Shown piece after piece: positions 39,465 to 56,607 of a DNA stretch of 64,000 bases. Position numbers and translations under genes: made by a program. The notes under the pieces are model-generated. The model was not told the DNA's origin, searched no databases, and saw only the letters and a list, made by a program, of their open reading frames with translations. This DNA comes from Minisyncoccota bacterium. Its GTDB lineage: Bacteria > Patescibacteriota > Minisyncoccia > Minisyncoccales > RBG-13-42-11. The stretch covers positions 50,034-114,033 of the forward strand of contig JAQTPY010000001.1 of assembly GCA_028712445.1 (NCBI GenBank), given 5' to 3'. The stretch's first letter is position 1; each line of letters opens with the position of its first letter.

Positions 39465-39857
39465 TTAAAAATTTAAATTGGGTGAGTCCAACATCAAAAC
39501 GTCGGGATTGACGATACGAAGCAAAATTACAGATCCCAACAAAAGAAGAATTCCGATCAAAGCAGATTTGATTATATCGGTGGCATCTTTTTGAGTAGTT
39601 GGGTTGCCGGAAGAAGACATGTATTTGATTCCGCCATAGACTATCATTGTAAAAGCCAAAAGACCTGAGATGGCAACGGCAAAATTAAAAATATATTGTA
39701 TCAATTGGGGAAGGGTGGCTACAAGATTCCCGTTCTCAGAAATTTTCACGCCTCCTGGCAGTTCTGGCCAATCGATTTCCGCCCTTAGGGCGAGAAGAGC
39801 AAAAAGCTCTTTTTTTGTTTTCAGAAACTTCATCATGATCTTTAGACAATATAACAT
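39465..39857 (-). CDS. VirB2/TrbC-like T4SS pilin candidate (signal peptide plus a two-TM hairpin).
   Basis: Signal-like N-terminus (KFLKTKKELFALLALRA), then FNFAVAISGLLAFTMIVYGGIKYMSSSGNP...IIKSALIGILLLLGSVILL. The topology is typical of Gram-positive/CPR T4SS pilins. Last gene of the T4SS-like block. Confidence 0.5.
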   Translation of the reverse strand: MLYCLKIMMKFLKTKKELFALLALRAEIDWPELPGGVKISENGNLVATLPQLIQYIFNFAVAISGLLAFTMIVYGGIKYMSSSGNPTTQKDATDIIKSALIGILLLLGSVILLRIVNPDVLMLDSPNLNF

Positions 39858-40266: not shown

Positions 40267-42048
40267 TTATTGCGAACCTTTGGCTCTTTTGATTTTTATT
40301 AATTCTTCAGGGGAAGTAGTGATAAACTGATCTTCGACATAGGAAGCGACAACTTTAATTGCCACATGTTTCTGGCCTGCAAAAAATATTCCTTCTCCCA
40401 CTTCTGCTTCCAATAGGGTGTTTTTTTCTTCTTGGGTTAAATTGAAAGTTTCCTGGAGAATATCTATTGTCGCCGGGCTTTGTTTCATTAAAATTTGCAT
40501 AGAAGAGTTGGTGATTATGGGTTTTCCATAATCAGATTTCATAAAATCTCCCACATCCTGGGTAATAGTCGTCACTCCAAGCCAATATTTTCTTGCCCTT
40601 TTGCAAATGCCATAAAGGAAAGAAGCTCCGTCATCAGATTGAACCATCCACCATGCTTCATCGACAACCAATATCCTCTTTTTTAATTCTGATCTGACTT
40701 TATTCCAGATATATCTCATAATAATGAACATTGCCATCGGGCGCAGCTCATCTTCCATGTCTCTTATTCCGAAAACAACGAAAGGAACGTCTGTGGAAAT
40801 ATTGGTGGGCTGGTTAAAGAAGCTGGCGAAACTGCCTTCGGTGAATTTTTTAACTCTTCGGACCAGAGACTCAGACCCCTCCATTCCGTTTAAAACTTCC
40901 TCAAGGTCAGACATTAAAGGGATTTTTTCTTTCCAAGTTAAAGGATCGCTTTCGGGAGTAATGTCTTTTAAGGCATAGGTTTGACTCAAGGCCTGGTCAA
41001 TAATGGCATCTTCTTCCGGGGTTAATCCCCCAAGCATTATTCTTAATAACCCTACCAAGTTGATAATATTTGAACGCAAAACTTCTTCGGGCCTCTCGTC
41101 TTCTCTTGGAGCGGGCAAGTCAAAAGGATTAATGTGGTTGGGAGAAGAGAGAGACATATTAAAGAAGGAACCGCCAACTCCTTCAGCCAGATGCTTGTAT
41201 TCATTTTCCGGATCAAGAACAATTACGTCTGACCCCATCATTAAAGAGCGGAGGATTTCCAGTTTTATCGCGTAGGATTTTCCGGAACCTGATTTTGCAA
41301 AAACAATGGAGTTTGCGTTTTCCAGACTGAAACGGTCAAACAATATTAAAGAATTATTGTGCAGATTTATTCCGTACAATATTCCGTCATTTGAGCTCAG
41401 GTCAAAGGAAACAAAAGGAAAAGAGCTCGAAAGAGAACCTGTGTCCATGGTGGTGTGAACGTTAACCTGGTCTAGTCCGTAAGGGGCGGTGGAATTAAAC
41501 CCTTCTTCCTGCTGGTAGAGAGCAGGCTTTATATATATTAATCTTGATTCCAATATTGACCTTAAGGTGGTTTCAACGTTCTTTATTTCCTCTAAGGTTT
41601 TTCCGTAAACCGTAAGATAGAGCCCGAATTCAAACATTCTTTCCTGGGCAGTCATTAATTTATCTCTCAACATCTCAAGGTCTTGGTAGGCCACCTCTAG
41701 GGCAGGATCCCTCACCTCCCCTTTTTCTTGTTTATCTATAAGCTCGGCTTCAACTTCAGTCACTCTTTTTCTTAATTTTTTCAATACTGTTCCTGTGTCA
41801 ATCGGGGTGATATGCAAGCTGATATCCATAGGAGTGTCGAGGTTGATTACCGGGGCAAACCAGGCGGTATTAAGATATCTGGGGTATGAAAAAATAAAGA
41901 AAGATTTTGCGAATCTTTTGCCAAACTCCAAATGATCGGGTTTTACAACAATAGAAGACGGGGCAATAATGTCTTTGGAATCAAGGGCATTTGCCTCAAA
42001 TAGTTTTTCAGGCTCAACGCTCTTCTTTTTAAAAAATGGAAAAGGCAT
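40267..42048 (-). CDS. virB4: VirB4/TraC/PrgJ-family T4SS ATPase, C-terminal 593-aa portion (central and ATPase domains).
   Basis: FIFSYPRYLNTAWFAPV segment, Walker A VFAKSGSGKSY, Walker B ILVVDEAWWM, and C-terminal motifs. Confidence 0.8.
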   Translation of the reverse strand: MPFPFFKKKSVEPEKLFEANALDSKDIIAPSSIVVKPDHLEFGKRFAKSFFIFSYPRYLNTAWFAPVINLDTPMDISLHITPIDTGTVLKKLRKRVTEVEAELIDKQEKGEVRDPALEVAYQDLEMLRDKLMTAQERMFEFGLYLTVYGKTLEEIKNVETTLRSILESRLIYIKPALYQQEEGFNSTAPYGLDQVNVHTTMDTGSLSSSFPFVSFDLSSNDGILYGINLHNNSLILFDRFSLENANSIVFAKSGSGKSYAIKLEILRSLMMGSDVIVLDPENEYKHLAEGVGGSFFNMSLSSPNHINPFDLPAPREDERPEEVLRSNIINLVGLLRIMLGGLTPEEDAIIDQALSQTYALKDITPESDPLTWKEKIPLMSDLEEVLNGMEGSESLVRRVKKFTEGSFASFFNQPTNISTDVPFVVFGIRDMEDELRPMAMFIIMRYIWNKVRSELKKRILVVDEAWWMVQSDDGASFLYGICKRARKYWLGVTTITQDVGDFMKSDYGKPIITNSSMQILMKQSPATIDILQETFNLTQEEKNTLLEAEVGEGIFFAGQKHVAIKVVASYVEDQFITTSPEELIKIKRAKGSQ

Positions 42049-42060
42049 AAATTCTTTAAT

Positions 42061-42678
42061 CTATTTTGTTATTTCCGGTGGAATTTCAGGATAATATCCC
42101 ACTTCTGATTCTTCGGGATGAAAAAGACTCCAAAACAACTCAATTAATTCAGGAGTGTTTAGGTGGCTGCACTGCAGGCCGCATCTTCTTAATCCTAAAG
42201 CGACAAATTCCATTCTCTGCCAAAGCTGGGATTTAGCTCTTTGAAAGTCGTCTTCCGTGGGCGTTGCAGTATTTGATTTTGTTCCAGGAATATTAAGAAC
42301 GTAAAATGGAACCAAAACATAGAAGGTTTTAGATAAAATCTGGCCTCCGGCAATAAGTTCTTTGATGAATTTCTGATATTCTTCAGTTTGTATTTTTAAG
42401 AGTTCGTTTTGCTGTTTTTGGGCCAAATCGCCAACTTTGTCTATGTATCCTGTAATGTTTAAAATTCTGGACTGGATAACGATTTCCAAGGGGAAATCCA
42501 GGGAATTTAAAAAGTTCTGGAATTGGAAAATGGTGGCTTCCTGTTCTTCAGCTGATTTTAAAGCAAAGTTTTGCGAGGACACGTTTAAAACTCCACGTAA
42601 AGATTTGTTCTTTAAATAGACAACCCCTTCTCTTATTTGTTCTATTTGTAAAAATTGTTGAGTGGATGATGAGGGCAT
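42061..42678 (-). CDS. virB4: VirB4/PrgJ N-terminal domain as a separate 205-aa ORF. It is in frame with 40267..42048 and separated from it only by a TAG plus 4 codons.
   Basis: GVVYLKNKSLRGVLNVSSQNFALKSAEEQEATIFQFQNFLNSLDFPLEIVIQSR matches the N-terminus of Gram-positive VirB4 proteins. Confidence 0.6.
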   Translation of the reverse strand: MPSSSTQQFLQIEQIREGVVYLKNKSLRGVLNVSSQNFALKSAEEQEATIFQFQNFLNSLDFPLEIVIQSRILNITGYIDKVGDLAQKQQNELLKIQTEEYQKFIKELIAGGQILSKTFYVLVPFYVLNIPGTKSNTATPTEDDFQRAKSQLWQRMEFVALGLRRCGLQCSHLNTPELIELFWSLFHPEESEVGYYPEIPPEITK

Positions 42679-42680
42679 GG

Positions 42681-42998
42681 TCAGGTTTTGGTTTTTAATT
42701 CGTATCTTTTATCTTGCTGTTTTTTCTTTTTCCAGATGTACATTTTAGGAGCGATAAAAAATTTTAAGACACTGCCAAGGGCCACTATAAAAGGACGGCC
42801 GTTGACTTTTATAAAAGACATGGCCAACGCTCCGCCGATAACAAAAACAGCAGCAATATAAAAGACAGGTCTGGGCAAAATGAAGTAAAGCAAAAAACAA
42901 ATTCCTCCTGCTCCGGCAATAAAAAGAAATTGGTTGAAGGTAAAAGGCCCAAATATTTTAGACTCGTATTCAATAAATTGTGGGACTGTAAAGCGCAT
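42681..42998 (-). CDS. PrgI-family (VirB3-like) small membrane protein.
   Basis: RFTVPQFIEYESKIFGPFTFNQFLFIAGAG plus two TM helices. Immediately upstream of virB4, as in Gram-positive T4SS loci. Confidence 0.55.
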   Translation of the reverse strand: MRFTVPQFIEYESKIFGPFTFNQFLFIAGAGGICFLLYFILPRPVFYIAAVFVIGGALAMSFIKVNGRPFIVALGSVLKFFIAPKMYIWKKKKQQDKRYELKTKT

Positions 42999-44052: not shown

Positions 44053-46743
44053 TTATATTAATTTTTTATATTTTGCCAATTCTGCTTTTAGTTTTGCGTC
44101 TCCGTCGATTGTTTTTATCAGTTGAGTTAATTCGCCAGCTCTTTTTATTTGATTATTTGAGATTTCCGCAGGTATTGCCTGGCCCTTGTCTCGCATGGCC
44201 ACAATCACTTTTCCTAATTTTTTTGCTATTTCAGAACCTTCTACAAATTTTTTGATCTGTGGATTGTCTTCAAGTATTTTGTGAGCGTCAAGCTCTCGTT
44301 TCACGTCGCCCTTCCCTTTTTGCTTGCTCAATGTTTCTTTATATCGCTGCAACTGCCCTCTTGACAAAGGATCACTGTCGATAAAATCTCTGGCTTTAAA
44401 TATTTCTTCGTTTCTTTCTATTATCTGTTTTTGGATATCTTCTTTGGCAGGAACCTGTCCGTCAGCTATCGCTTTAAGTATGGAATTTTCATCACTGTCA
44501 ACGCTTTTTTGGTTTTCGATATATTCATTTAGCGGAGAATTGCTTTCCAAGATCTGTTTGGCGGCGACATTTCTTCCGAAATCTTTTTCATCGACGCCGG
44601 CAATTCCTACTCCAAGAGTTAAAGCAGGAGTGTCTATCAAGAACTTTGCTGCTTTGGCATTTCTCATTTTGTGGATTGTTTTTGTTTCAGGAAGTTTTGT
44701 GTTTGGGTTAATTTCAGTCCAAGATGTTTCTTCTATTTCCGTGAACCAATCAAGACCTTTTTTCTTAGCTTCGTTTATATAATCATCAGCGAATGGGGAA
44801 CCGAATTCTTCAACCATTTTACTGATCTTTTTGCCATCATAATTCTTGAGTATAGATTCTCTTATCGTCATTTCTTCTTTCCCAGTATCAGGATTAGTTG
44901 TTTTTGTTAACCAAGATCCGTCTTTAAAATCTTTAACCTCATCTCCACTTGTCTCAGCCCATATTTTATCAGTAAGCGTTCCGTATTTTGCCTGTTCTTC
45001 GGCGCTTAGTTCAAATCCCATCTTAGCCAAGTCATCATTGTTGAGGGTGTGCATAAAGCCCCTGGCCATCCTTTCGGCATCATCTTTTTTGCCAAGCCTG
45101 TTTGATGAAGCGGCTGAGGAGATGATTTCTTCTTTGCTTAATCTGCCCCTCTCAAACATATCCCAGACTCGTTTTTTGCTTTCTTTTCCTGCTTCAATTC
45201 CGCCGGCAATCAGACCGGTTAATTTTTCTTTATTGCCCAATCTTTTGGCCGCCATGATTTTTCTTTCCAGATTTTCAGGATCCTTAACGTCTTTTGCGTC
45301 TTTTTTGCCCACCTCAACCCCTGCCATGGTTTTTTCGCCAACGGTTGTGCCAGCCACCCTGTAACCAAAGTCAATCATGTTTCCTGCTCCTAGCCGCATT
45401 TTGTTTAACAAACCTACTTTTTGACCGCTGGCCACTTTCGCCCTTAAATCTTCTCTGGTATTTTGAGTGAATTCTCTCAAACCCCTGTCAGTTCTGCTCC
45501 TTAGCGCGCTCAAGCCCTTCTTTTTGGCCCAATTAAGCCCTTTATTTCCCCACTGGAGAACCGCTTCTGTTCCCCCGCCAGAGAATTTCAAAGTCACGAC
45601 GAAGCCGATTATCATAAAAGCAATAAAGGCGATCAAGACAAACGCGCCATTCATTATATAAGTAACGGGAGATATTATGATTTGCATAATTCCTTCTGCC
45701 CCTGTTTCGGTTATTTTAGGATAAGGTATGTCGGCCTTGGTTAAACGTCCCGCCAAGTAAAGGAAGAATCCTCCTATTGCTCCGATAAAAGACCATTGGA
45801 TGAAATAATTCAACCACATTTTGAAGACTTTTTGGGTGGTGGGTAGAATTTGGCAAAACCAGGCGATAGGGGCCAAGATGACCAAAATCCACAAAGCAAC
45901 TATTCTTATTGCAAAAATGGCAACATAAAGCAAAATAACGATTCCAGCCATAATCCCGAAAAGACTCATCATTACGGTGTCTATTATAAGAGTTATTATT
46001 TGTTGGGGATTTAGATATTTAACAAAAATATCCAAAATACTCGTCCATGTCTTAGTCGGTTCTATTTGAGTAATTTCCTCTCCATCTATGATAATGGTCG
46101 ATGTTTCGGGTTGCATTTGGTCAGCTAGGCCAGTAAAGACTGAAACAAAATCACCCAAAGGAGTTTTATTAAAGAACGTCATAAAATTATCTCCCAAATT
46201 TCCGATTAAAAAGTGTCGGGTTACTATATTGGCAATATCAATCACTATCCCGCAGAATACGGGAACAAAGTTTATTAAAAGAATAACGATGAGAAATTTG
46301 GGTAGAAGTTTTTTTAATCCATAGTTTTCTCTTCTTAAAATAGTGGCTATGGCAATTACAACCAAAACCAAAATAAAAATTAAATTTGCCAGCCCTGTAG
46401 TAACTCTTAGTCCTTCATCAACAATACCGCCACGGGTTGCGGAAAGAGAAACGAACGCCTCGCTGGTGACAAAGGTCAAAAGAGAAGTGCAAAGGGAGTA
46501 GAACGCAAATGACGATAAAGTTATAATTGTCGTTCCGACGATGATGATGGTTATCGGCATACCAAAAAACATCAAAAGAGGCAAATATTTTATATAGTCG
46601 CCAACGTCCATAATCCCTTTCCAGATATCGCTAAGACCGGCAGCGTTGGCAAAGTTAATTGTTGCAAAACTAAACAACAAAATTAACCCGAAACAAGAAA
46701 CTAAGGTTTTTTTGTTTGCTGAAAGTTTTTTGATCAGATCCAT
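44053..46743 (-). CDS. VirB6/TrbL-like polytopic membrane protein with a ~500-aa hydrophilic C-terminal extension.
   Basis: Signal peptide, then about 9 TM helices over ~400 aa, then a long Lys/Glu-rich soluble tail. First gene of the block. Confidence 0.55.
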   Translation of the reverse strand: MDLIKKLSANKKTLVSCFGLILLFSFATINFANAAGLSDIWKGIMDVGDYIKYLPLLMFFGMPITIIIVGTTIITLSSFAFYSLCTSLLTFVTSEAFVSLSATRGGIVDEGLRVTTGLANLIFILVLVVIAIATILRRENYGLKKLLPKFLIVILLINFVPVFCGIVIDIANIVTRHFLIGNLGDNFMTFFNKTPLGDFVSVFTGLADQMQPETSTIIIDGEEITQIEPTKTWTSILDIFVKYLNPQQIITLIIDTVMMSLFGIMAGIVILLYVAIFAIRIVALWILVILAPIAWFCQILPTTQKVFKMWLNYFIQWSFIGAIGGFFLYLAGRLTKADIPYPKITETGAEGIMQIIISPVTYIMNGAFVLIAFIAFMIIGFVVTLKFSGGGTEAVLQWGNKGLNWAKKKGLSALRSRTDRGLREFTQNTREDLRAKVASGQKVGLLNKMRLGAGNMIDFGYRVAGTTVGEKTMAGVEVGKKDAKDVKDPENLERKIMAAKRLGNKEKLTGLIAGGIEAGKESKKRVWDMFERGRLSKEEIISSAASSNRLGKKDDAERMARGFMHTLNNDDLAKMGFELSAEEQAKYGTLTDKIWAETSGDEVKDFKDGSWLTKTTNPDTGKEEMTIRESILKNYDGKKISKMVEEFGSPFADDYINEAKKKGLDWFTEIEETSWTEINPNTKLPETKTIHKMRNAKAAKFLIDTPALTLGVGIAGVDEKDFGRNVAAKQILESNSPLNEYIENQKSVDSDENSILKAIADGQVPAKEDIQKQIIERNEEIFKARDFIDSDPLSRGQLQRYKETLSKQKGKGDVKRELDAHKILEDNPQIKKFVEGSEIAKKLGKVIVAMRDKGQAIPAEISNNQIKRAGELTQLIKTIDGDAKLKAELAKYKKLI

Positions 46744-46791: not shown

Positions 46792-46823
46792 AAAAAAAGG
46801 GCTAACAAGATTCTTGTTAGCCC
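46792..46823 (-). terminator. Rho-independent terminator after the 180-aa OB-fold gene.
   Basis: gggctaacaag-att-cttgttagccc with a T-run on the minus strand. Confidence 0.55.
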
Positions 46824-46846
46824 CAAGCCAACTAATGGTGCCGAAG

Positions 46847-47389
46847 TTAGTTGACTATTTTGCATTCGGCAAGCTCCACCCATGTGTCGGAGCTGCCCTT
46901 AAACACTCCCTGCACTATTACTGTGTCTCCCACCTTTACGCCGGTCGGGATAGTATTGAAGACGCATTGTACTTTGCTGAAAGATCCTGCCCAAAGCCAG
47001 ACTACCACGCTGTCTGAAAGCGTGTGGATTTCCTTGACAGTGCCCTTCACTAGCAACTCCTTATCTTTATATGCCGATGGATTGTTGTGACCTTCTTTGA
47101 AAATCTGATCAGCATACATTAGAGGGGGAGCAGAAGAAGGAGATGAAGGAGTGTCAGTAATTGTGGGTTTAGACAAAGTTGGTGGGCTGGTCGGCGGAGC
47201 TTTCGGAGTTGCTATGGGCGTGTTTGTTGAGGTTATAGCAACCGTAGGCGCAGAAGCACTAGCTTCGGGATTCATTGCGATTGCTTCTGACGTTGGCGTT
47301 GTCGCTGCGGTGTTGAAGGCAAAGAAGCCCCCAGCTGCAGCCAATAATATTGCGGAGAAGATTATTATAAAAACAAATCTTTTTTTCAC
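46847..47389 (-). CDS. Secreted or anchored protein: signal/TM, a Pro/Thr/Ser-rich linker, and a C-terminal OB-fold-like domain.
   Basis: N-terminal hydrophobic helix, ~70 aa of PTS-rich low complexity, then KELLVKGTVKEI...VVVWLW...VKVGDTVIVQGVF. Confidence 0.45.
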   Translation of the reverse strand: MKKRFVFIIIFSAILLAAAGGFFAFNTAATTPTSEAIAMNPEASASAPTVAITSTNTPIATPKAPPTSPPTLSKPTITDTPSSPSSAPPLMYADQIFKEGHNNPSAYKDKELLVKGTVKEIHTLSDSVVVWLWAGSFSKVQCVFNTIPTGVKVGDTVIVQGVFKGSSDTWVELAECKIVN

Positions 47390-47541: not shown

Positions 47542-49746
47542 TTAAATAGGAAACTGCCACCATTTGCCAAAGATCTCAATTTGGAATCCCAGTAATGACA
47601 AGAGGAAAGTGACAATAAACCAGGCAGAAAAGACGATCAAAAATCCTTTGCCAAATGATTTCCAAATAGATTTGATTTTGCTCAAGGTGCCAGAATCCCC
47701 CATGGCAGTGTAATAAATTATGCCAGAGCCAGTCACCAGGAAAATCAATAAAATAGGAATCAGGGTCCAGAGGACAAAATCAAGAATGTTTCTGAAAATG
47801 TAGAAAATATCTTTAAATTCGCAAGGCCTGTGATCGTCATAAGGGGTGTCTGGGGAGTCGCAGTTCCTTCCGCAAGGAACCAGCCCTTTTTTGCATTCTT
47901 TATCTCCAGGAACCAAATTGAAAGAGAAATTGGCCCATTCTCCGGCGTCTTGGCAGTCTTTATCCAAGCAGGCCTTGACAGACCAGGAGTAGTTTTGAAA
48001 ATTTAAGTTCCCGGTTTCAAGAAAAGTTGAGTTCGTCCCAACAATGCCTTCGGGGCCTCCCGAAATCTTGTATTGATAATAGTTGGCTCCTTCCACAGGA
48101 TTCCAGGAAAGGTTTTTTTGATAAGAAATTAATTCTCCGCCGTTTGAGGGTTCAGGATTTGCCACTTGGGGAAGAGTGAAAGTAGTGAAATTTTTTACAG
48201 AGGAATTTCCGCAGATTTTAGCTTCCCTGTCAGCACAGGTTTTAAGAGCTAACCAATAGTTCGTTTTCGTTTTAAGGAGAGGATAATCGGCCAAAGGATT
48301 GGCTCCCGCGAAAGGAAGGAGGCCTGAAGACAAAATTTGAGAAAAGCTTCCATTAGATGAAAGCTCATAATAATAAGAGGCGGCTGCCGGCATTTGGTCA
48401 AAAGTCAAAGAAACGGGAATTAAGGGGAGCCCCTGGTTTCCGAAAGGGCTGATTTTAATGTTTGTTGGAGGAGCCCCTGTGGTTTTGAAAGTCAAGTTAT
48501 TAAAAATTTGTTCGCAATTGTTCCCTTTTTCGTCCCAACAAGAACTTAACTTCAAGGTGTAGCCTTGATTAAGTTCAAGTTTGTTCCAGATATCGCTGAA
48601 AGGAACGGAAGTGATTTCTCCCGAAGTGGTGGCGCTTATTATCGTCAGGCCGTTTTTTAAAATTTCATATCTGTAGGAGAGCACCCCTTTCAGCCCCATT
48701 GATTCCCAGGAGATGGAGTTTGAAAGATTGACCGTGTCTGAGTCTTTGGGGAAATTGATCACGGGAGCAAGAAGGTTCAGAGTGCCTGTGTTTATTTTCC
48801 AATATTGACTGAAATCTCCGCACTCTGAACCTTCTTGATTTTCCTTGCATTTTTCTCCGCAATCAGTGCCGTCCGCATTCAAACAGGCGGCGATTTCCCA
48901 AGAATAATCACTAAGCTTGGTAAAAATATCTGTCCCATATTCTATTTCCGAACTTTCAATGTTTTCTTTTTCATCGATGGGAACGGGAAAAAATATCTTT
49001 CCGTCTTTGTACAGCTTAAGAAAATATGATTCAGCGTCATTTACTGAGCACCAGTCAAGTTTCACTGGCACGGAAGTGTTTTGGGCGCTCTCTTCCCCTT
49101 GCCAGTCGGGGTCTTTCGGCGAAACTAGTTCTGGCGCCAGAGAGGTTTTTAAATTCCAGTTGCTGGAATTTCCACAGTTGGTTCCGTTGGCGTTGCAGCA
49201 AGCAGAGACATCCCAGTTATAAGAAGAATTGGAGTCAAGAAGACAAGAACCATTGTCTTCTTGGACATCATATTCAGATTTATTAATTATTTTTGAGACT
49301 ATCTTGTTGTAAATATTAATTACGTAAGATTTAGGTCCGGTAGACTCTCCCCAGCCTGCCACGTCGTTCCAATCCAGTTTTACGGGCAGCTTAATATTAT
49401 TTTTATCTACGCTTTTTGAAGACTGGTCTGAATAATAGGGATTATCGTAATACCTGTCGCCAGAAGGGGTTTCCAAGCATTCTCCCTGACAGGAACAGGA
49501 AGGCGGAGAGGCGCTGCATCTTTCCCAGGATTGGCATTCCTGGACTAATATGTCTTCGCATTCGCTTCCTCCACAGCAGGGCTCCCCGGGAGTCACGTAG
49601 CGGAGCTCTCCTTCGCAGCCTCCGGCGCAGTAATAATATCCTCCGCAGGGGCAAGGGATGCATTTTTCCCCCTCAGCTTTTGCTTGCTGAAAAAATAAAA
49701 AAATAAAAAACAGTAAAATAAAAAATATGAAAAACTTTTTCATCAT
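47542..49746 (-). CDS. Large Cys-rich surface protein: signal peptide, a CxC-rich module, about 5 tandem beta-sandwich-like repeats each closed by a Cys pair, and a C-terminal pilin-like 2-TM hairpin.
   Basis: Repeats end in ..SACCNANGTNCG.., ..AACLNADGTDCG.., ..SSCWDEKGNNCE.., ..KTCADREAKICG.., ..KACLDKDCQDAG... The C-terminus reads LLIFLVTGSGIIYYTAMGDSGTLSKIKSIWKSFGKGFLIVFSAWFIVTFLL. The start overlaps the ksgA stop (TAATG). Confidence 0.55.
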   Translation of the reverse strand: MMKKFFIFFILLFFIFLFFQQAKAEGEKCIPCPCGGYYYCAGGCEGELRYVTPGEPCCGGSECEDILVQECQSWERCSASPPSCSCQGECLETPSGDRYYDNPYYSDQSSKSVDKNNIKLPVKLDWNDVAGWGESTGPKSYVINIYNKIVSKIINKSEYDVQEDNGSCLLDSNSSYNWDVSACCNANGTNCGNSSNWNLKTSLAPELVSPKDPDWQGEESAQNTSVPVKLDWCSVNDAESYFLKLYKDGKIFFPVPIDEKENIESSEIEYGTDIFTKLSDYSWEIAACLNADGTDCGEKCKENQEGSECGDFSQYWKINTGTLNLLAPVINFPKDSDTVNLSNSISWESMGLKGVLSYRYEILKNGLTIISATTSGEITSVPFSDIWNKLELNQGYTLKLSSCWDEKGNNCEQIFNNLTFKTTGAPPTNIKISPFGNQGLPLIPVSLTFDQMPAAASYYYELSSNGSFSQILSSGLLPFAGANPLADYPLLKTKTNYWLALKTCADREAKICGNSSVKNFTTFTLPQVANPEPSNGGELISYQKNLSWNPVEGANYYQYKISGGPEGIVGTNSTFLETGNLNFQNYSWSVKACLDKDCQDAGEWANFSFNLVPGDKECKKGLVPCGRNCDSPDTPYDDHRPCEFKDIFYIFRNILDFVLWTLIPILLIFLVTGSGIIYYTAMGDSGTLSKIKSIWKSFGKGFLIVFSAWFIVTFLLSLLGFQIEIFGKWWQFPI

Positions 49747-50585
49747 TAATCTATTCTATATGTTTTTAATAAATTCAGCCAATCTTCCAGCTCTAATGTT
49801 TCGGCCCTTCTTTTAGGTTCAATCTTATTTTCAATCAGCCAGGTCCCGACTTTCTCTTTACTCAGATTAAGTTTGTTTGAGAGGTTGTTTATCAATTGTT
49901 TTCTCGGTTGGGAAAATCCAGCTTTTACGATTTTAAAAAATGAATCCCTGTTTTTTTCCTTTAATAATGGCTCTCTAAAAGGAAGAATCTTTATCACTGC
50001 AGCGTCAACGTTGGGTTCCGGCCAAAAGAATTTTCCAGGGACGTAAGAAATGATTTTAGGATTTGCGTAAATCTGGACAGAAACCGCTAAAATATTCATT
50101 CCAGGCGGTTTAGAGCATATTTTTTTTCCAACTTCCTTCTGAATTGTAAAAACCATGCTTTCAGGAGGGTTTTCAGATTCCAGAAATCTTCTGATTAGGG
50201 GAGAAGTTAAATAAAAAGGCAGATTGCCGGCTACTTTGTATTTTTCATTTTGGACACCGAGACTTCCCAGATCCACTCTTAAAGCATCTCCCTCTATTAC
50301 CTCTACATTATTAAGCCCTGCCAGAGTTTCTTTCAAAATTTCTATCATTGTCCGGTCTTTTTCTATGGCTACTACCTTTTTAGCTTTTCTTGCCAGTTCT
50401 TGGGTTAAGACTCCCAGCCCGGGTCCGATTTCTAATACCAATTCATCAGATTGGAGATCTAAAGCTTCGGTAAGTTTTTCTATAGTCGATCTATTCAATA
50501 AAAAATTCTGCCCCAATCCTTTAGAGGGGCGAGCCAGATGGTTTTTCAGGATGTTTTTAATGTCAGATTTGGAAAAAAGATCCAT
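49746..50585 (-). CDS. rsmA: 16S rRNA (adenine1518/1519-N6)-dimethyltransferase.
   Basis: GQNFL, LEIGPGLG and the NLPY motif context. Confidence 0.85.
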   Translation of the reverse strand: MDLFSKSDIKNILKNHLARPSKGLGQNFLLNRSTIEKLTEALDLQSDELVLEIGPGLGVLTQELARKAKKVVAIEKDRTMIEILKETLAGLNNVEVIEGDALRVDLGSLGVQNEKYKVAGNLPFYLTSPLIRRFLESENPPESMVFTIQKEVGKKICSKPPGMNILAVSVQIYANPKIISYVPGKFFWPEPNVDAAVIKILPFREPLLKEKNRDSFFKIVKAGFSQPRKQLINNLSNKLNLSKEKVGTWLIENKIEPKRRAETLELEDWLNLLKTYRID

Positions 50586-50593
50586 ATTTAAAG

Positions 50594-51790
50594 GTGTACA
50601 AATTGTGGATAAAAAGCTTGACTGAGGAGCCTATTTTTATTATACTATTACAAGTCAATATGAAACGCAAAAGCAAGGGGCTCTTGAGGTGGAGAAAGAG
50701 TCTCAAAAAGCTAAAAAAGTATTTTGAAGGGTCTCTAGAAGATCCTTTCTTCTGTTTTGGAGCAGCCGCTTTATTTTTATTCATTATTGTCTGCTTGAAT
50801 CCGGGAAATATTTCCGGATCCTCAGAAAGCAGAGAGAATCTTTCTTTAGCAGCCCTTTCCCAGGTTTTAATAGATGAATCTGGCGATAAAAACCAGTTTG
50901 CCGGCTTGTCTGCCAAGAAAACTTTAATTGAATCTCCGGGTTTTCTTTTGGTCGGAAATTCCAGCTTAAAGGCAGTCACTTCACCTAGCGCTCTTTCCCC
51001 TCAGATTTTAGGAGCTTTAGTTGGCGATGTTGAATCTTATGACAATGAAAAGAGTGTTCGTGAATACGCCGTTGAGTCGGGAGACACCCTTTGGTCTATT
51101 GCCGACAGATTCGGCATATCAATAGATACCATTCTTTGGGCGAATGATCTAAATAAGAACACTTTGCTTAAAGAAGGGCAACGATTGATAATTCTTCCTG
51201 TTTCAGGCGTCATTCACCATGTTAAGTCCGGAGACACCATATCCGTTGTCGCTCAAAAGTATAAAGGAAAGACAGAAGATGTTATAGCGTACAATAATCT
51301 TTCTAACGAAGGAGATATTTACGTCGGAGACATATTGGTTATTCCTGGCGGGAAAATGCCAAAAGTAACCTATCCCAGTTCACCCAATGTTCCTTTGGCT
51401 GACAGCTACTTTATTTGTCCAATCGGTTCTCCTTGCCGCATTACGCAAGGTCTCCATTTCTATAACGCTGTTGATTTCAGCCATGGAAAATGCGGCGAAG
51501 TGATTTATGCTGCAGCTGCCGGGACCGTCCAGAGGGTTAACATGACAAATTCCACTTACAGGCTGGCAAATAACGGGTATGGAAGCCACATGACCATATT
51601 GCATCCCAATGGAGCAGTCACTTATTACGGGCACATTGCCGCTATTCTGGTAAATACGGGAGACAAAGTTTCCCAGGGCCAGCCTATAGCTTTGATGGGA
51701 GGAAAACCTGGCACTGCTGGAGCAGGGAAATCAACAGGTTGTCATCTTCATTTCGGAGTTTCAGGAGCTAGAAATCCTTTTGCGAGATAG
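50594..51790 (+). CDS. LysM-domain M23 family peptidase. The start may be the internal Met at 50657.
   Basis: Two LysM repeats (GDTLWSIADRFGI, GDTISVVAQKYKG) and an M23 HxxxD...HLH core (HMTILHPNG...CHLHF). Confidence 0.8.
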   Translation: MYKLWIKSLTEEPIFIILLQVNMKRKSKGLLRWRKSLKKLKKYFEGSLEDPFFCFGAAALFLFIIVCLNPGNISGSSESRENLSLAALSQVLIDESGDKNQFAGLSAKKTLIESPGFLLVGNSSLKAVTSPSALSPQILGALVGDVESYDNEKSVREYAVESGDTLWSIADRFGISIDTILWANDLNKNTLLKEGQRLIILPVSGVIHHVKSGDTISVVAQKYKGKTEDVIAYNNLSNEGDIYVGDILVIPGGKMPKVTYPSSPNVPLADSYFICPIGSPCRITQGLHFYNAVDFSHGKCGEVIYAAAAGTVQRVNMTNSTYRLANNGYGSHMTILHPNGAVTYYGHIAAILVNTGDKVSQGQPIALMGGKPGTAGAGKSTGCHLHFGVSGARNPFAR

Positions 51791-56327: not shown

Positions 56328-56366
56328 ATTAGTTTATAGTTTTTAGTTAGTAGTTTTTAGTTTAGA
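56328..56366 (-). repeat. Tandem TAnnAAC heptamer repeats immediately 5' of the rpsO start codon.
   Basis: Minus-strand reading: TAAAC TAAAAAC TACTAAC TAAAAAC TATAAAC TAAT then ATG. Confidence 0.6.
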
Positions 56367-56368
56367 CT

Positions 56369-56444
56369 TGGTGCCCCCGCCGCGACTCGGACGCGGAACC
56401 ACTTCCTTAAGAGGGAATTGCTCTACCAATTGAGCTACGGGGGC
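56369..56444 (-). tRNA. tRNA-Lys (anticodon CTT) with an encoded 3' CCA.
   Basis: Reverse complement: GCCCCCG acceptor, D-arm GCTCAATTGGTAGAGC, anticodon loop CTCTTAA, T-arm CCGCG-TCCGAGT-CGCGG, ends ACCA. Confidence 0.8.
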
Positions 56445-56457
56445 AAGTCCTCCGCTA

Positions 56458-56529
56458 TGCCCCCGGAAGGACTCGAACCCTCACTCCAAGATCCGAAGTC
56501 TTGTACGCTATCCATTACGTTACGGGGGC
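56458..56529 (-). tRNA. tRNA-Arg (anticodon TCG). CCA is not encoded.
   Basis: Reverse complement: acceptor GCCCCCG/CGGGGGC, anticodon arm CAAGA-CTTCGGA-TCTTG, T-loop TTCGAGT, 4-nt variable loop. Confidence 0.7.
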
Positions 56530-56607
56530 CAGATTTTTGTTAGACTGGAATATCGTTATTCTACCAGATTGATTGAAAAAAACAAGTTTTTAAGATAAAA
56601 TGAGTGA

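What the first reader, a model, noticed from the sequence alone, without database searches (positions are those of the whole stretch)
47542..49746. Giant Cys-rich repeat protein ending in a pilin-like two-helix hairpin, translationally coupled to ksgA
The 734-aa protein has a signal peptide, a dense CxC/CxxC N-terminal module, and about five tandem ~100-aa repeats that each end in a conserved Cys pair (..AC.NA.GT.CG..). It finishes with a TM-loop-TM segment (..VTGSGIIYYTAMGDSGTLSKIKSIWKSFGKGFLIVFSAWF..). Topology and loop pattern there resemble the separate 130-aa pilin-like gene at 39465 (..AISGLLAFTMIVYGGIKYMSSSGNP..IIKSALIGILLLL..). That suggests a pilin-adhesin fusion, perhaps a tip or minor pilin carrying a disulfide-stabilised stalk. 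Its ATG overlaps the ksgA stop (TAATG), which is an odd partner for a housekeeping rRNA methyltransferase.
Basis: partly seen in the sequence, partly recalled or inferred. Interest (0 to 1): 0.65.

Follow-up and report, generated by a model that had tools for sequence, protein, structure and literature searches.

The report
FN3-stalk protein fused to T4SS pilin
This gene of an ultra-small (Patescibacteria/CPR) bacterium encodes a secreted stalk of five fibronectin-like domains fused to a complete type IV secretion pilin, so it is a plausible missing host-contact adhesin of the secretion system these episymbionts depend on.

Summary
ORF 47542-49746 (-) encodes a 734-aa protein: signal peptide, a 13-Cys N-terminal knot, five mutually homologous FN3-type domains with invariant Cys pairs, and a C-terminal two-helix hairpin. 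"Giant" is an overstatement.

The C-terminal 120 aa form a complete pilin module of the Patescibacterial T4SS_pilin family (PF18895). The match is borderline for this protein and above threshold in homologues. The module aligns end to end with stand-alone 142-182-aa pilins. It is only remotely similar to the window's own 130-aa pilin, at profile level.

All 46 aligned homologues keep the hairpin, and it is the most conserved part of the protein. The gene sits between ksgA and the VirB6-like/PrgI/VirB4 genes in essentially every genome examined. ksgA lies directly upstream in 23 of 24 loci.

The same module ends thousands of other proteins of 142-1668 aa, some with M23 or C39 peptidase domains.

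Best reading: a pilin-anchored adhesin stalk that works with the oriC-proximal T4SS. Incorporation into a pilus, as opposed to plain membrane anchoring, is inferred and not shown.

NCBI already names the protein "pilin", but I found no paper describing the architecture. It is a new variant of a known kind, of moderate-to-high interest.

The parts
49746..50585 (-). ksgA/rsmA (16S rRNA dimethyladenosine transferase). Its TAA stop shares one base with the ATG of the stalk-pilin gene.
   Evidence: Pfam RrnaAD E = 5.5e-55. Junction sequence read directly. ksgA lies directly upstream in 23 of 24 related loci.
47542..49746 (-). Whole CDS of the FN3-stalk/pilin fusion protein: 734 aa plus stop. NCBI MDD5144614.1, named 'pilin'.
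49675..49746 (-). Sec signal peptide, aa 1-24, with predicted cleavage AKA|EGE.
   Evidence: Read directly from the sequence; helix 6-17 in the model. Cleavage is inferred.
49411..49674 (-). N-terminal Cys-rich knot, aa 25-112, with 13 Cys. It is the most variable region: 0-184 aa long in homologues.
49138..49410 (-). FN3-like domain D1, aa 113-203 (Cys 168, 183, 184, 191).
48781..49137 (-). FN3-like domain D2, aa 204-322, with a Cys-containing insertion (Cys 233, 288, 296, 300, 309).
48475..48780 (-). FN3-like domain D3, aa 323-424 (Cys 403/411).
48175..48474 (-). FN3-like domain D4, aa 425-524 (Cys 504/512).
47905..48174 (-). FN3-like domain D5, aa 525-614 (Cys 593/598).
47545..47904 (-). 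Complete pilin module, aa 615-734. It comprises the GLVPCGR...C cap (invariant C625/C642), helix 645-680, a basic loop 681-697, helix 685/698-718/722, and the FGxWW tail.
   Evidence: PF18895 hits. Homology to stand-alone pilins. Model. 5485 cluster representatives carry the module; in all of the best 150 listed it is at the extreme C-terminus.
46847..47389 (-). Small exported OB-fold (tRNA_anti-like) protein between the fusion gene and the VirB6-like gene. It is specific to this lineage.
   Evidence: Pfam PF12869 E = 1.5e-9. No counterpart was detected in other loci at E < 1e-5.
46798..46824 (-). Intrinsic-terminator-like hairpin (12-bp stem plus T run) after the OB-fold gene.
   Evidence: consensus scan only
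44053..46743 (-). 896-aa polytopic membrane protein in the VirB6 position, with a long hydrophilic C-terminal extension.
   Evidence: Homologue found by phmmer in every related locus that extends far enough downstream of the fusion gene. No Pfam VirB6 hit, so the VirB6 identity is inferred from position and topology.
42681..42998 (-). PrgI/VirB3-like protein.
   Evidence: Pfam PrgI E = 1e-8
42061..42678 (-). Separate TraC-like/TrsD-like protein, homologous to the N-terminal part of VirB4.
   Evidence: NCBIfam VirB4_plasma positions 103-280, E = 1.6e-10. PF26593 TraC-like in related loci.
40267..42048 (-). VirB4-type ATPase.
   Evidence: P-loop_TraG E = 6.2e-27, plus AAA_10 and DUF87
39465..39857 (-). 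Stand-alone 130-aa T4SS pilin, of the VirB4-adjacent subtype.
   Evidence: PF18895 at 41.9 bits. NCBIfam Mbov_0395 pilin-like E = 2e-7, below cutoff.

Best explanation
The gene encodes a modular 'stalk-pilin'.

Shown:
- The protein has a Sec signal peptide, a hypervariable Cys-rich tip module, a rod of five FN3-type domains with conserved Cys pairs, and, after a linker of only about 5-10 residues, a complete pilin module of the Patescibacterial T4SS_pilin family.
- That module consists of a Cys-bridged GLVPCGR...C cap, two hydrophobic helices joined by a short basic loop, and an FGxWW tail.
- The gene is the first gene after ksgA at the head of the conserved oriC-proximal T4SS locus (VirB6-like, PrgI/VirB3, TraC-like, VirB4, small pilin) of Paceibacteria/Nealsonbacteria-type CPR bacteria.

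Inferred:
- After export, the hairpin inserts in the cytoplasmic membrane N-out / loop-in / C-out. The lysine-rich loop fits the positive-inside rule, and this is the known topology of VirB2/TraA pilins.
- The whole 620-aa ectodomain is therefore outside the cell.
- The pilin module is then handled by the VirB4/VirB6-like machinery like the small pilins. It is either co-assembled sparsely or at the tip of the T4SS filament, or held at its base.
- The FN3 rod thereby projects the variable Cys-knot tip towards the host cell and acts as the adhesin of the system.
- ksgA coupling simply supplies transcription and translation in a compact genome.
For: Architecture
- AF2 model with pLDDT 85.3, showing five beta-sandwiches and a helical hairpin.
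- Foldseek to FN3 arrays, E = 1e-15.
- Repeats are mutually homologous.

Pilin identity of the C-terminus
- PF18895 hits in this protein and in homologues.
- End-to-end homology to stand-alone pilins that consist only of a signal peptide plus this module: the L005 182-aa pilin (BLASTP 6e-14, 76.8 bits) and P0064, P0137 and P0151 of 142-150 aa.
- hhalign to the VirB4-adjacent pilin profile: 85%, E = 5.9e-6.
- Among 423 window ORFs, the two pilin-like sequences find only each other.

More than an anchor
- The module is the most conserved region: 45-49% identity against 32-42% for the ectodomains. There are no indels in either helix, and polar, Gly and Trp positions are invariant.
- The module exists without any passenger domain.

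Link to the T4SS
- VirB6-like, PrgI, TraC-like and VirB4 follow the gene in every locus long enough.
- In L027 the ksgA link is lost, but the link to the pilin and VirB6-like genes is kept.

Generality
- 5485 cluster representatives carry the module; in the best 150 it is always at the extreme C-terminus, on proteins of 142-1668 aa.
- Some of them carry Peptidase_M23 or Peptidase_C39_2 domains.
- VirB4-adjacent-type pilins in related loci carry passenger domains at the N-terminus, the C-terminus or both. This fits both termini being extracellular.

Literature
- CPR T4SS genes and pilin arrays are essential for epibiotic growth (PMC10633639).
- No adhesin had been detected in CPR T4SS loci (PMC12102498).
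Against: - No experiment shows that any CPR T4SS makes a pilus, or that PF18895 proteins polymerise.
- This protein's own PF18895 score is just under the gathering score: 22.4 bits for the full protein and 26.4-26.5 bits for the isolated module, against 26.6.
- Direct comparison with proteobacterial VirB2 is not significant: hhalign 20%, E = 1e-3. Foldseek of the hairpin model puts T-pilus VirB2 only at rank 6 with E = 5.6.
- Known VirB2/TraA pilins are small. A 620-aa N-terminal passenger on every subunit would be hard to pack into a helical filament, so at most sparse or terminal incorporation is plausible.
- A promoter-like site follows the gene, and a strong terminator-like hairpin lies before the VirB6-like gene. 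Co-transcription with the machinery genes is therefore not established.
- Adhesin function is inferred only from domain types and from tip variability.
Confidence: 0.55

Rival explanations
1. Membrane anchor only. The pilin-derived hairpin has been co-opted as a two-helix membrane anchor. The protein is a static cell-surface stalk or adhesin (or envelope spacer) that is never handled by the T4SS or polymerised.
For: - The passenger is very large compared with any known VirB2-type pilin.
- The same module ends many unrelated ectodomains, including enzymes, as a generic anchor would.
- There is no structural or experimental evidence for CPR T4SS pili.
- A terminator-like site separates the gene from the machinery genes.
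Against: - Simple anchors are usually constrained only for hydrophobicity. Here the module is the best-conserved part, with invariant polar, Gly and Trp residues, a conserved Cys-bridged cap and a conserved tail.
- The module also exists alone, with nothing to anchor.
- The gene keeps its position in the T4SS locus in all genomes, even where ksgA linkage is lost.
Confidence: 0.3
2. Pro-protein. The ectodomain is cleaved off just before GLVPCGR, releasing an ordinary small pilin and a soluble or wall-bound FN3 protein. The fusion would then be only a way of co-exporting two products.
For: In stand-alone pilins, the predicted signal-peptide cleavage site lies 4-12 residues before GLVPCGR. This is the point at which the FN3 rod joins the module in the fusion.
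Against: - The junction (…NLVPGDKECKK|GLVPCGR) has no signal-peptidase-like hydrophobic region.
- Its sequence is poorly conserved apart from being short.
- No dedicated protease is conserved in the locus.
Confidence: 0.07
3. Coincidental neighbour. This is a generic FN3 surface protein whose adjacency to ksgA and the T4SS genes reflects frozen synteny near oriC and has no functional link. The PF18895 match would be a hydrophobic-helix artefact.
For: - PF18895 scores are borderline for this protein.
- Helical hairpins give non-specific matches.
- Gene order near oriC is generally conserved in CPR (PMC12102498).
Against: - Homology to stand-alone pilins includes the non-hydrophobic cap and tail: E = 6e-14, 76.8 bits.
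- Reciprocal profile hits are unique among the window ORFs.
- L027 shows rearrangement upstream with the T4SS linkage retained.
Confidence: 0.05

Closest known systems
Small VirB2-like pilins of the Patescibacterial T4SS (Pfam PF18895 T4SS_pilin). These include the essential pilin array of Ca. Southlakia epibionticum (PMC10633639) and the arrays catalogued in PMC12102498.
   Same: - The same two-helix hairpin module, with a basic loop and an N-terminal Sec signal.
- The same genomic neighbourhood: VirB4, PrgI, TraC-like/TrsD, VirB6-like, close to dnaA.
- The C-terminal 120 aa align end to end with stand-alone members.
   Different: - The described pilins are small, about 120-180 aa as precursors. 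This protein carries a 620-aa passenger (Cys knot plus five FN3 domains) between the signal peptide and the pilin.
- It belongs to a distinct subtype, with a GLVPCGR...C cap and an FGxWW tail.
- It sits at the opposite end of the locus from the VirB4-adjacent pilin.
VirB2/TrbC/TraA conjugative pilins of proteobacteria (T-pilus, F-pilus)
   Same: - Predicted topology: signal peptide, then two hydrophobic helices and a short basic loop.
- Association with a VirB4 ATPase.
- From established structures, both termini face the outside of the pilus, so passengers could in principle be displayed.
   Different: - There is no significant sequence or fold match here.
- Those pilins are small and often cyclised or acetylated.
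- To my knowledge none carries large folded domains.
T4SS-associated adhesins: VirB5 and CagL tip proteins, and PrgB-type LPXTG adhesins of Gram-positive conjugation systems
   Same: - Proposed role: a host- or recipient-contact protein encoded within a T4SS locus.
- An extended stalk with a variable distal module.
   Different: - No homology was detected.
- There is no LPXTG motif.
- Attachment would be through a covalently fused pilin module. It would not be through non-covalent binding to the pilus tip or through sortase anchoring.
Minor or tip pilins with large adhesin domains in other filament systems (e.g. PilY1/PilC-type and PilV-type adhesins of type IV pili; sortase-pilus tip pilins)
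   Same: The concept of a filament subunit that carries an adhesive passenger domain.
   Different: This is an unrelated filament system. There is no class III prepilin signal and no sortase motif. The polymerisation module is C-terminal and of the T4SS type.

Membership tests
Pfam PF18895 T4SS_pilin (Patescibacterial VirB2-like pilin) | HMM score at or above the gathering score (26.6 bits) | tested here: inconclusive
   This protein scores 22.4 bits in full and 26.4-26.5 bits for the isolated C-terminus, just below the cutoff. Homologues P0018, P0023 and P0021 pass at 27.4-29.5 bits. 16 of 22 C-terminal modules hit at E <= 0.01.
Pfam PF18895 T4SS_pilin (Patescibacterial VirB2-like pilin) | Homology to bona fide stand-alone members over the whole module | tested here: met
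   Against the L005 182-aa PF18895 pilin: BLASTP 6e-14 and HMM 76.8 bits over cap, both helices and tail. Against the VirB4-adjacent pilin profile: hhalign 85%, E = 5.9e-6. Complete stand-alone versions are P0064, P0137 and P0151.
Pfam PF18895 T4SS_pilin (Patescibacterial VirB2-like pilin) | Two hydrophobic helices joined by a short polar/basic loop, preceded by a Sec signal | tested here: met
   Helices 645-680 and 685-718. The loop is MGDSGTLSKIKSIWKS. The signal peptide is residues 1-24.
Pfam PF18895 T4SS_pilin (Patescibacterial VirB2-like pilin) | Encoded in a T4SS locus with VirB4 | tested here: met
   Window. Every related locus long enough shows it.
Pfam PF18895 T4SS_pilin (Patescibacterial VirB2-like pilin) | Small protein consisting essentially of the pilin module | tested here: not met
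   The protein is 734 aa, with 620 aa of ectodomain before the module.
VirB2/TrbC/TraA pilin superfamily (PF04956 and relatives) | Detectable sequence or fold similarity to experimentally characterised pilins | tested here: inconclusive
VirB2/TrbC/TraA pilin superfamily (PF04956 and relatives) | Polymerises into an extracellular filament in a VirB4-dependent way | not testable with these tools
   Needs microscopy or biochemistry. No CPR T4SS pilus has been demonstrated; reviews speak of a 'potential to elaborate conjugative pili' (PMC12857230).
Fibronectin type III / Ig-like beta-sandwich repeats | Seven-stranded beta-sandwich fold in tandem | tested here: met
   AF2 pLDDT is about 90 over the five domains. 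Foldseek matches gp130, fibronectin FN3 7-10, LAR and GhpA at E = 1e-15 to 1e-12. Homologues hit Pfam Ig_Rha78A_N and fn3. The window protein itself has no Pfam FN3 hit.
Type IV pilus (T4P) pilins | N-terminal class III signal with a G|F/M-T-L-I/V-E prepilin motif and an N-terminal hydrophobic helix | tested here: not met
   The motif is absent. The signal is an ordinary Sec type, and the hydrophobic module is C-terminal.
Sortase-dependent pilins / LPXTG adhesins (PrgB-like) | C-terminal LPXTG sorting signal | tested here: not met
   There is no LPxTG in the sequence.

The most novel reading that the evidence does not exclude
Patescibacteria may use VirB2-type T4SS pilins as a general display scaffold. 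In this reading thousands of proteins (5485 clusters at 50% identity) are genuine pilus subunits whose outward-facing termini carry large passengers: FN3 stalks with hypervariable Cys-knot tips, Ig-like arrays, and M23 or C39 peptidases. The T4SS filament of these episymbionts would then be a decorated, adhesive and possibly cell-wall-cutting organelle, unlike the bare conduit pili of classical systems. This protein would be the conserved locus-encoded adhesin that has so far been reported as missing from CPR T4SS loci.
Probability: 0.3. Interest if true: 0.8.

Novelty: new variant of a known kind. Interest (0 to 1): 0.6.

Why it matters
The T4SS is one of the few machines shown to be essential for the epibiotic life of Patescibacteria (PMC10633639). 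Its substrate, its filament and its way of contacting the host are all unknown. The published survey explicitly found no adhesin (PMC12102498).

A conserved, locus-encoded protein that covalently joins a long FN3 stalk with a variable tip to a pilin module gives a concrete, testable candidate for the host-contact element.

The wider family, with peptidase-bearing and doubly extended pilins, suggests that pilin modules are used as carriers for large extracellular domains. To my knowledge this has not been described for VirB2-type pilins.

The family would also be a practical handle: a surface-exposed, lineage-specific antigen for labelling or enriching uncultured Paceibacteria and Nealsonbacteria.

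Tried and rejected
- BLASTP of the C-terminal 121 aa against the window's 130-aa pilin gave no alignment. The relationship is visible only with profiles.
- NCBIfam has no model for the fusion protein. Only 2 of 22 modules weakly touch the Mycoplasma ICE pilin-like model.
- A PDB sequence search with the module profile found nothing relevant.
- Foldseek of the isolated hairpin model gave no significant hit, as expected for a two-helix hairpin.
- I built an alignment of 8 proteobacterial VirB2/TrbC proteins from plasmids and compared profiles. The C-terminal module gave 20% probability and the small pilin 0.6%, so there is no independent proof of VirB2 superfamily membership.
- The search for related loci with the module alignment failed for lack of a conserved 7-10 column stretch. 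The full-length alignment was used in its place.
- The homologue search with the small pilin returned only 3 proteins.
- Considered and rejected: a T4P pilin or sortase pilin (motifs absent); a C-terminal sorting signal of the PEP-CTERM or PGF-CTERM type (the module is 120 aa with two helices and exists as a free-standing protein); and a functional link between rRNA methylation and the pilin (nothing supports it beyond synteny, and L027 shows the two genes can separate).
- I found no paper describing large pilin fusions in CPR.
Full report
**1. The observation**

The ORF at 47542-49746 on the minus strand exists and encodes 734 aa. Upstream lies ksgA (49746-50585; Pfam RrnaAD, E = 5.5e-55). 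The junction reads GAT TAATG ATG, so the first ATG shares one base with the TAA stop and a second ATG follows in frame.

The protein starts with a typical Sec signal (MMKKFFIFFILLFFIFLFFQQAKA|EGE). It contains 32 cysteines, 13 of them in residues 29-90.

It is a real gene. Fifty homologues were found, with E-values down to 2e-237. The identical protein is in NCBI as MDD5144614.1, 'pilin [Candidatus Paceibacterota bacterium]'.

**2. Anatomy**

An AlphaFold2 model built on 47 sequences has mean pLDDT 85.3. It shows a small beta-rich Cys knot (about residues 37-100) and five beta-sandwich domains: D1 113-203, D2 204-322, D3 323-424, D4 425-524 and D5 525-614. A less confident 30-residue segment follows, and then two long helices, 645-680 and 685-718.

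- Foldseek against the PDB matches the rod to tandem FN3 arrays. The hits include gp130 at 1e-15, fibronectin FN3 7-10 at 7e-13, LAR, and the bacterial grappling-hook protein GhpA.
- Homologues hit Pfam Ig_Rha78A_N and fn3.
- Profiles of the five domains detect each other, with hhalign probability 97.5-99.6%. The 'about five repeats' are therefore true paralogous domains.
- The Cys pair that closes each domain is invariant or nearly invariant in 47 sequences. So is the pair C625/C642 just before the first helix.
- The Cys pairing itself is inferred, because I could not measure distances in the model.

**3. The C-terminus is a whole pilin**

- The full protein hits Pfam T4SS_pilin (PF18895) at 22.4 bits, and the isolated C-terminus at 26.4-26.5 bits. 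The gathering score is 26.6.
- Several homologues pass the threshold. Sixteen of 22 isolated C-termini hit at E <= 0.01.
- The window's 130-aa pilin (39465-39857) scores 41.9 bits.
- Direct BLASTP between the C-terminus and that pilin finds nothing. The family profiles do match: hhalign 85%, E = 5.9e-6. In a search of all 423 window ORFs, each profile finds only the other.
- The module aligns end to end with a different, stand-alone PF18895 pilin found in a related genome (L005 1430-1978, 182 aa): BLASTP 6e-14, HMM 76.8 bits. The alignment includes the non-hydrophobic GLVPCGR...C cap and the G-WW tail.
- Complete proteins consisting only of signal peptide plus this module exist (P0064, P0137, P0151; 142-150 aa). 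So does a version with one FN3 domain (P0062, 241 aa).

The fusion therefore joins the FN3 rod to the point that would be the mature N-terminus of a free pilin.

**4. Conservation**

All 46 aligned homologues keep the hairpin. The module is the most conserved part of the protein:

- It shows 45-49% identity to the window protein, with no indels in either helix. W660, Y679, S681, G683, K692, G699, G701, W709 and W729 are invariant or nearly so.
- The Cys knot is the least conserved part, at 32% identity, and its length ranges from 0 to 184 aa.

This pattern fits a machine-recognised or self-packing module with a fast-evolving distal tip. It does not fit a mere hydrophobic anchor.

**5. Genomic context**

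The window comes from a Patescibacterial (Paceibacterota) genome, near oriC. On the plus-strand map the order is dnaN, dnaA, rnpA, yidC and jag. The minus-strand genes below are then listed in their direction of transcription:

1. ksgA
2. the fusion gene
3. a small OB-fold protein
4. an 896-aa polytopic VirB6-position protein
5. PrgI/VirB3
6. a TraC-like protein
7. VirB4
8. a small TM protein
9. the 130-aa pilin

I examined six further genomes through exact-protein look-ups and 21 loci from GTDB species representatives (Nealsonbacteria, Wildermuthbacteria, other Patescibacteria). I annotated all of them with phmmer.

- ksgA is directly upstream in 23 of the 24 unique loci that include upstream sequence. 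In 21 of these 23 the junction is an overlap or a gap of at most 11 nt.
- The VirB6-like, PrgI, TraC-like and VirB4 genes follow in every locus long enough.
- The single exception, L027, has lost ksgA upstream but keeps the pilin and VirB6-like genes downstream. The link to the T4SS is therefore the tighter one.
- KsgA near virB4 had already been noted statistically in PMC12102498.
- A promoter-like site follows the fusion gene, and a strong terminator-like hairpin follows the OB-fold gene. These are consensus matches only, so co-transcription with the machinery genes is not established.

**6. How general is it?**

The module profile finds 5485 representatives at 50% identity with E <= 1e-3, and 1115 with E <= 1e-10, among 1.84 billion proteins.

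- In all of the best 150 the module is at the extreme C-terminus. Protein length runs from 142 to 1668 aa, and 122 of the 150 are at least 400 aa.
- This sample is biased towards relatives of the query.
- Some members carry Peptidase_M23 (P0063) or Peptidase_C39_2 (P0033) upstream of FN3 domains.
- In related loci the other pilin subtype, which is VirB4-adjacent in the window, also occurs with C-terminal extensions or with both N- and C-terminal extensions, at 234-579 aa. This is what one expects if both ends of the hairpin are extracellular.

**7. Mechanism**

Shown: the domain architecture, homology of the C-terminus to free pilins, conservation, and T4SS synteny.

Inferred:
- N-out/loop-in/C-out insertion. 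This rests on the Sec signal, the lysine-rich loop and the known topology of VirB2/TraA.
- Display of the ectodomain outside the cell.
- Handling of the pilin module by the VirB4/VirB6-like machinery, so that the stalk is attached to the T4SS filament (sparsely or at the tip) or to its base, with the variable Cys knot contacting the host.

The main rival is that the pilin-derived hairpin is only an anchor. The data do not exclude this. I rate the pilin-linked adhesin model at about 0.55 and the anchor-only model at about 0.3. Cleavage into two products and a coincidental neighbourhood both seem unlikely.

**8. Limits**

- Membership of PF18895 is borderline by score for this protein but solid at family level.
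- Membership of the wider VirB2/TrbC superfamily could not be shown independently:
  - there is no PF04956 hit;
  - hhalign against eight proteobacterial VirB2/TrbC proteins gives 20%;
  - Foldseek of the hairpin lists the T-pilus subunit only at E = 5.6;
- No CPR T4SS pilus has been demonstrated. Published statements are predictions (PMC10633639, PMC12857230).

**9. Novelty**

The CPR T4SS, its small VirB2-like pilins, their arrays, the oriC-proximal position and the nearby KsgA are all published (PMC12102498, PMC10633639). NCBI's pipeline already calls this protein 'pilin'.

I could not find any description of large passenger-carrying pilins, or of this conserved FN3-stalk/pilin gene at the head of the locus. 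The survey paper states that no adhesins were detected.

I therefore classify it as a new variant of a known kind. Interest is about 0.6. It is not categorically new, but it would surprise T4SS specialists and it makes the host-contact question directly testable.

Noticed in passing
L014 12749-14488; L027 9340-11058; L015 2656-3864; L006 14107-14949; L005 14212-15153; L016 12129-12911; L025 13837-14955: In related genomes the pilin subtype that is VirB4-adjacent in the window (motif ...LEVDWPNSP.GT...YLYEWGI.LGG...FQYLTS.GN...) occurs as proteins of 234-579 aa. These carry Cys-containing C-terminal domains, and in three cases also N-terminal Ig-like repeats, so the pilin hairpin is embedded mid-protein. 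These genes lie between the stalk-pilin gene and the VirB6-like gene. They tend to occur in loci where no small pilin was detected next to VirB4.
   Followed up: partly
P0063 (1108 aa) and P0033 (1010 aa), relatives found: Proteins ending in the same pilin module carry Peptidase_M23 (P0063) or Peptidase_C39_2 (P0033) upstream of FN3 domains. Lytic or proteolytic enzymes are thus tethered to a pilin module.
   Followed up: partly
window 50594-51790 (+): A LysM-LysM-Peptidase_M23 protein is transcribed divergently from ksgA. It is conserved at this position in nearly all related loci. It could be the cell-wall hydrolase (the VirB1 role) that surveys report as mostly missing from CPR T4SS loci.
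   Followed up: partly
window 39465-39857 (-): The stand-alone pilin has a much shorter hydrophobic signal region (…KKELFALLALRA|EIDWPELPGG) than its closest homologues P0052, P0053 and the L001 pilin, which have about 20 hydrophobic residues. This may reflect an N-terminal deletion or a weakened signal peptide.
   Followed up: no
window 42061-42678 (-): A separate 205-aa ORF matches the N-terminal part of VirB4 (NCBIfam VirB4_plasma positions 103-280, E = 1.6e-10). It lies directly upstream of the VirB4 ATPase gene, like the TrsD/TraC-like proteins described in PMC12102498.
   Followed up: partly
window 44053-46743 (-): The 896-aa protein in the VirB6 position has no Pfam VirB6/TrbL hit. It combines an N-terminal polytopic region with a hydrophilic, K/E-rich C-terminal half of about 480 aa (an 'extended VirB6'-like layout). 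A homologue was found in every related locus that extends far enough.
   Followed up: partly
window 46847-47389 (-) and 46798-46824 (-): A small exported OB-fold (tRNA_anti-like, PF12869) protein with a T/P/S-rich linker sits between the stalk-pilin gene and the VirB6-like gene. It is followed by a 12-bp-stem terminator-like hairpin. No counterpart was detected in the other loci.
   Followed up: no
L005 1430-1978 and the equivalent positions in L001, L008, L009, L013, L014, L018, L020 and L024: A stand-alone GLVPCGR-type pilin (about 130-180 aa) lies roughly 8 kb upstream of ksgA, next to rpsO, in many related genomes. The window has no such gene at the corresponding place (56328-56607).
   Followed up: partly
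L028 9355-11621: A contig binned as 'Candidatus Binatia' carries a tandem array of four or five small pilin-module genes. This is probably a Patescibacterial contig mis-binned, or a case of horizontal transfer.
   Followed up: no
L027 1-6179: This is the only locus where the stalk-pilin gene is not preceded by ksgA and the M23 gene. The upstream region holds unrelated genes, including a transposase-like ORF at the contig end, which suggests a rearrangement.
   Followed up: partly
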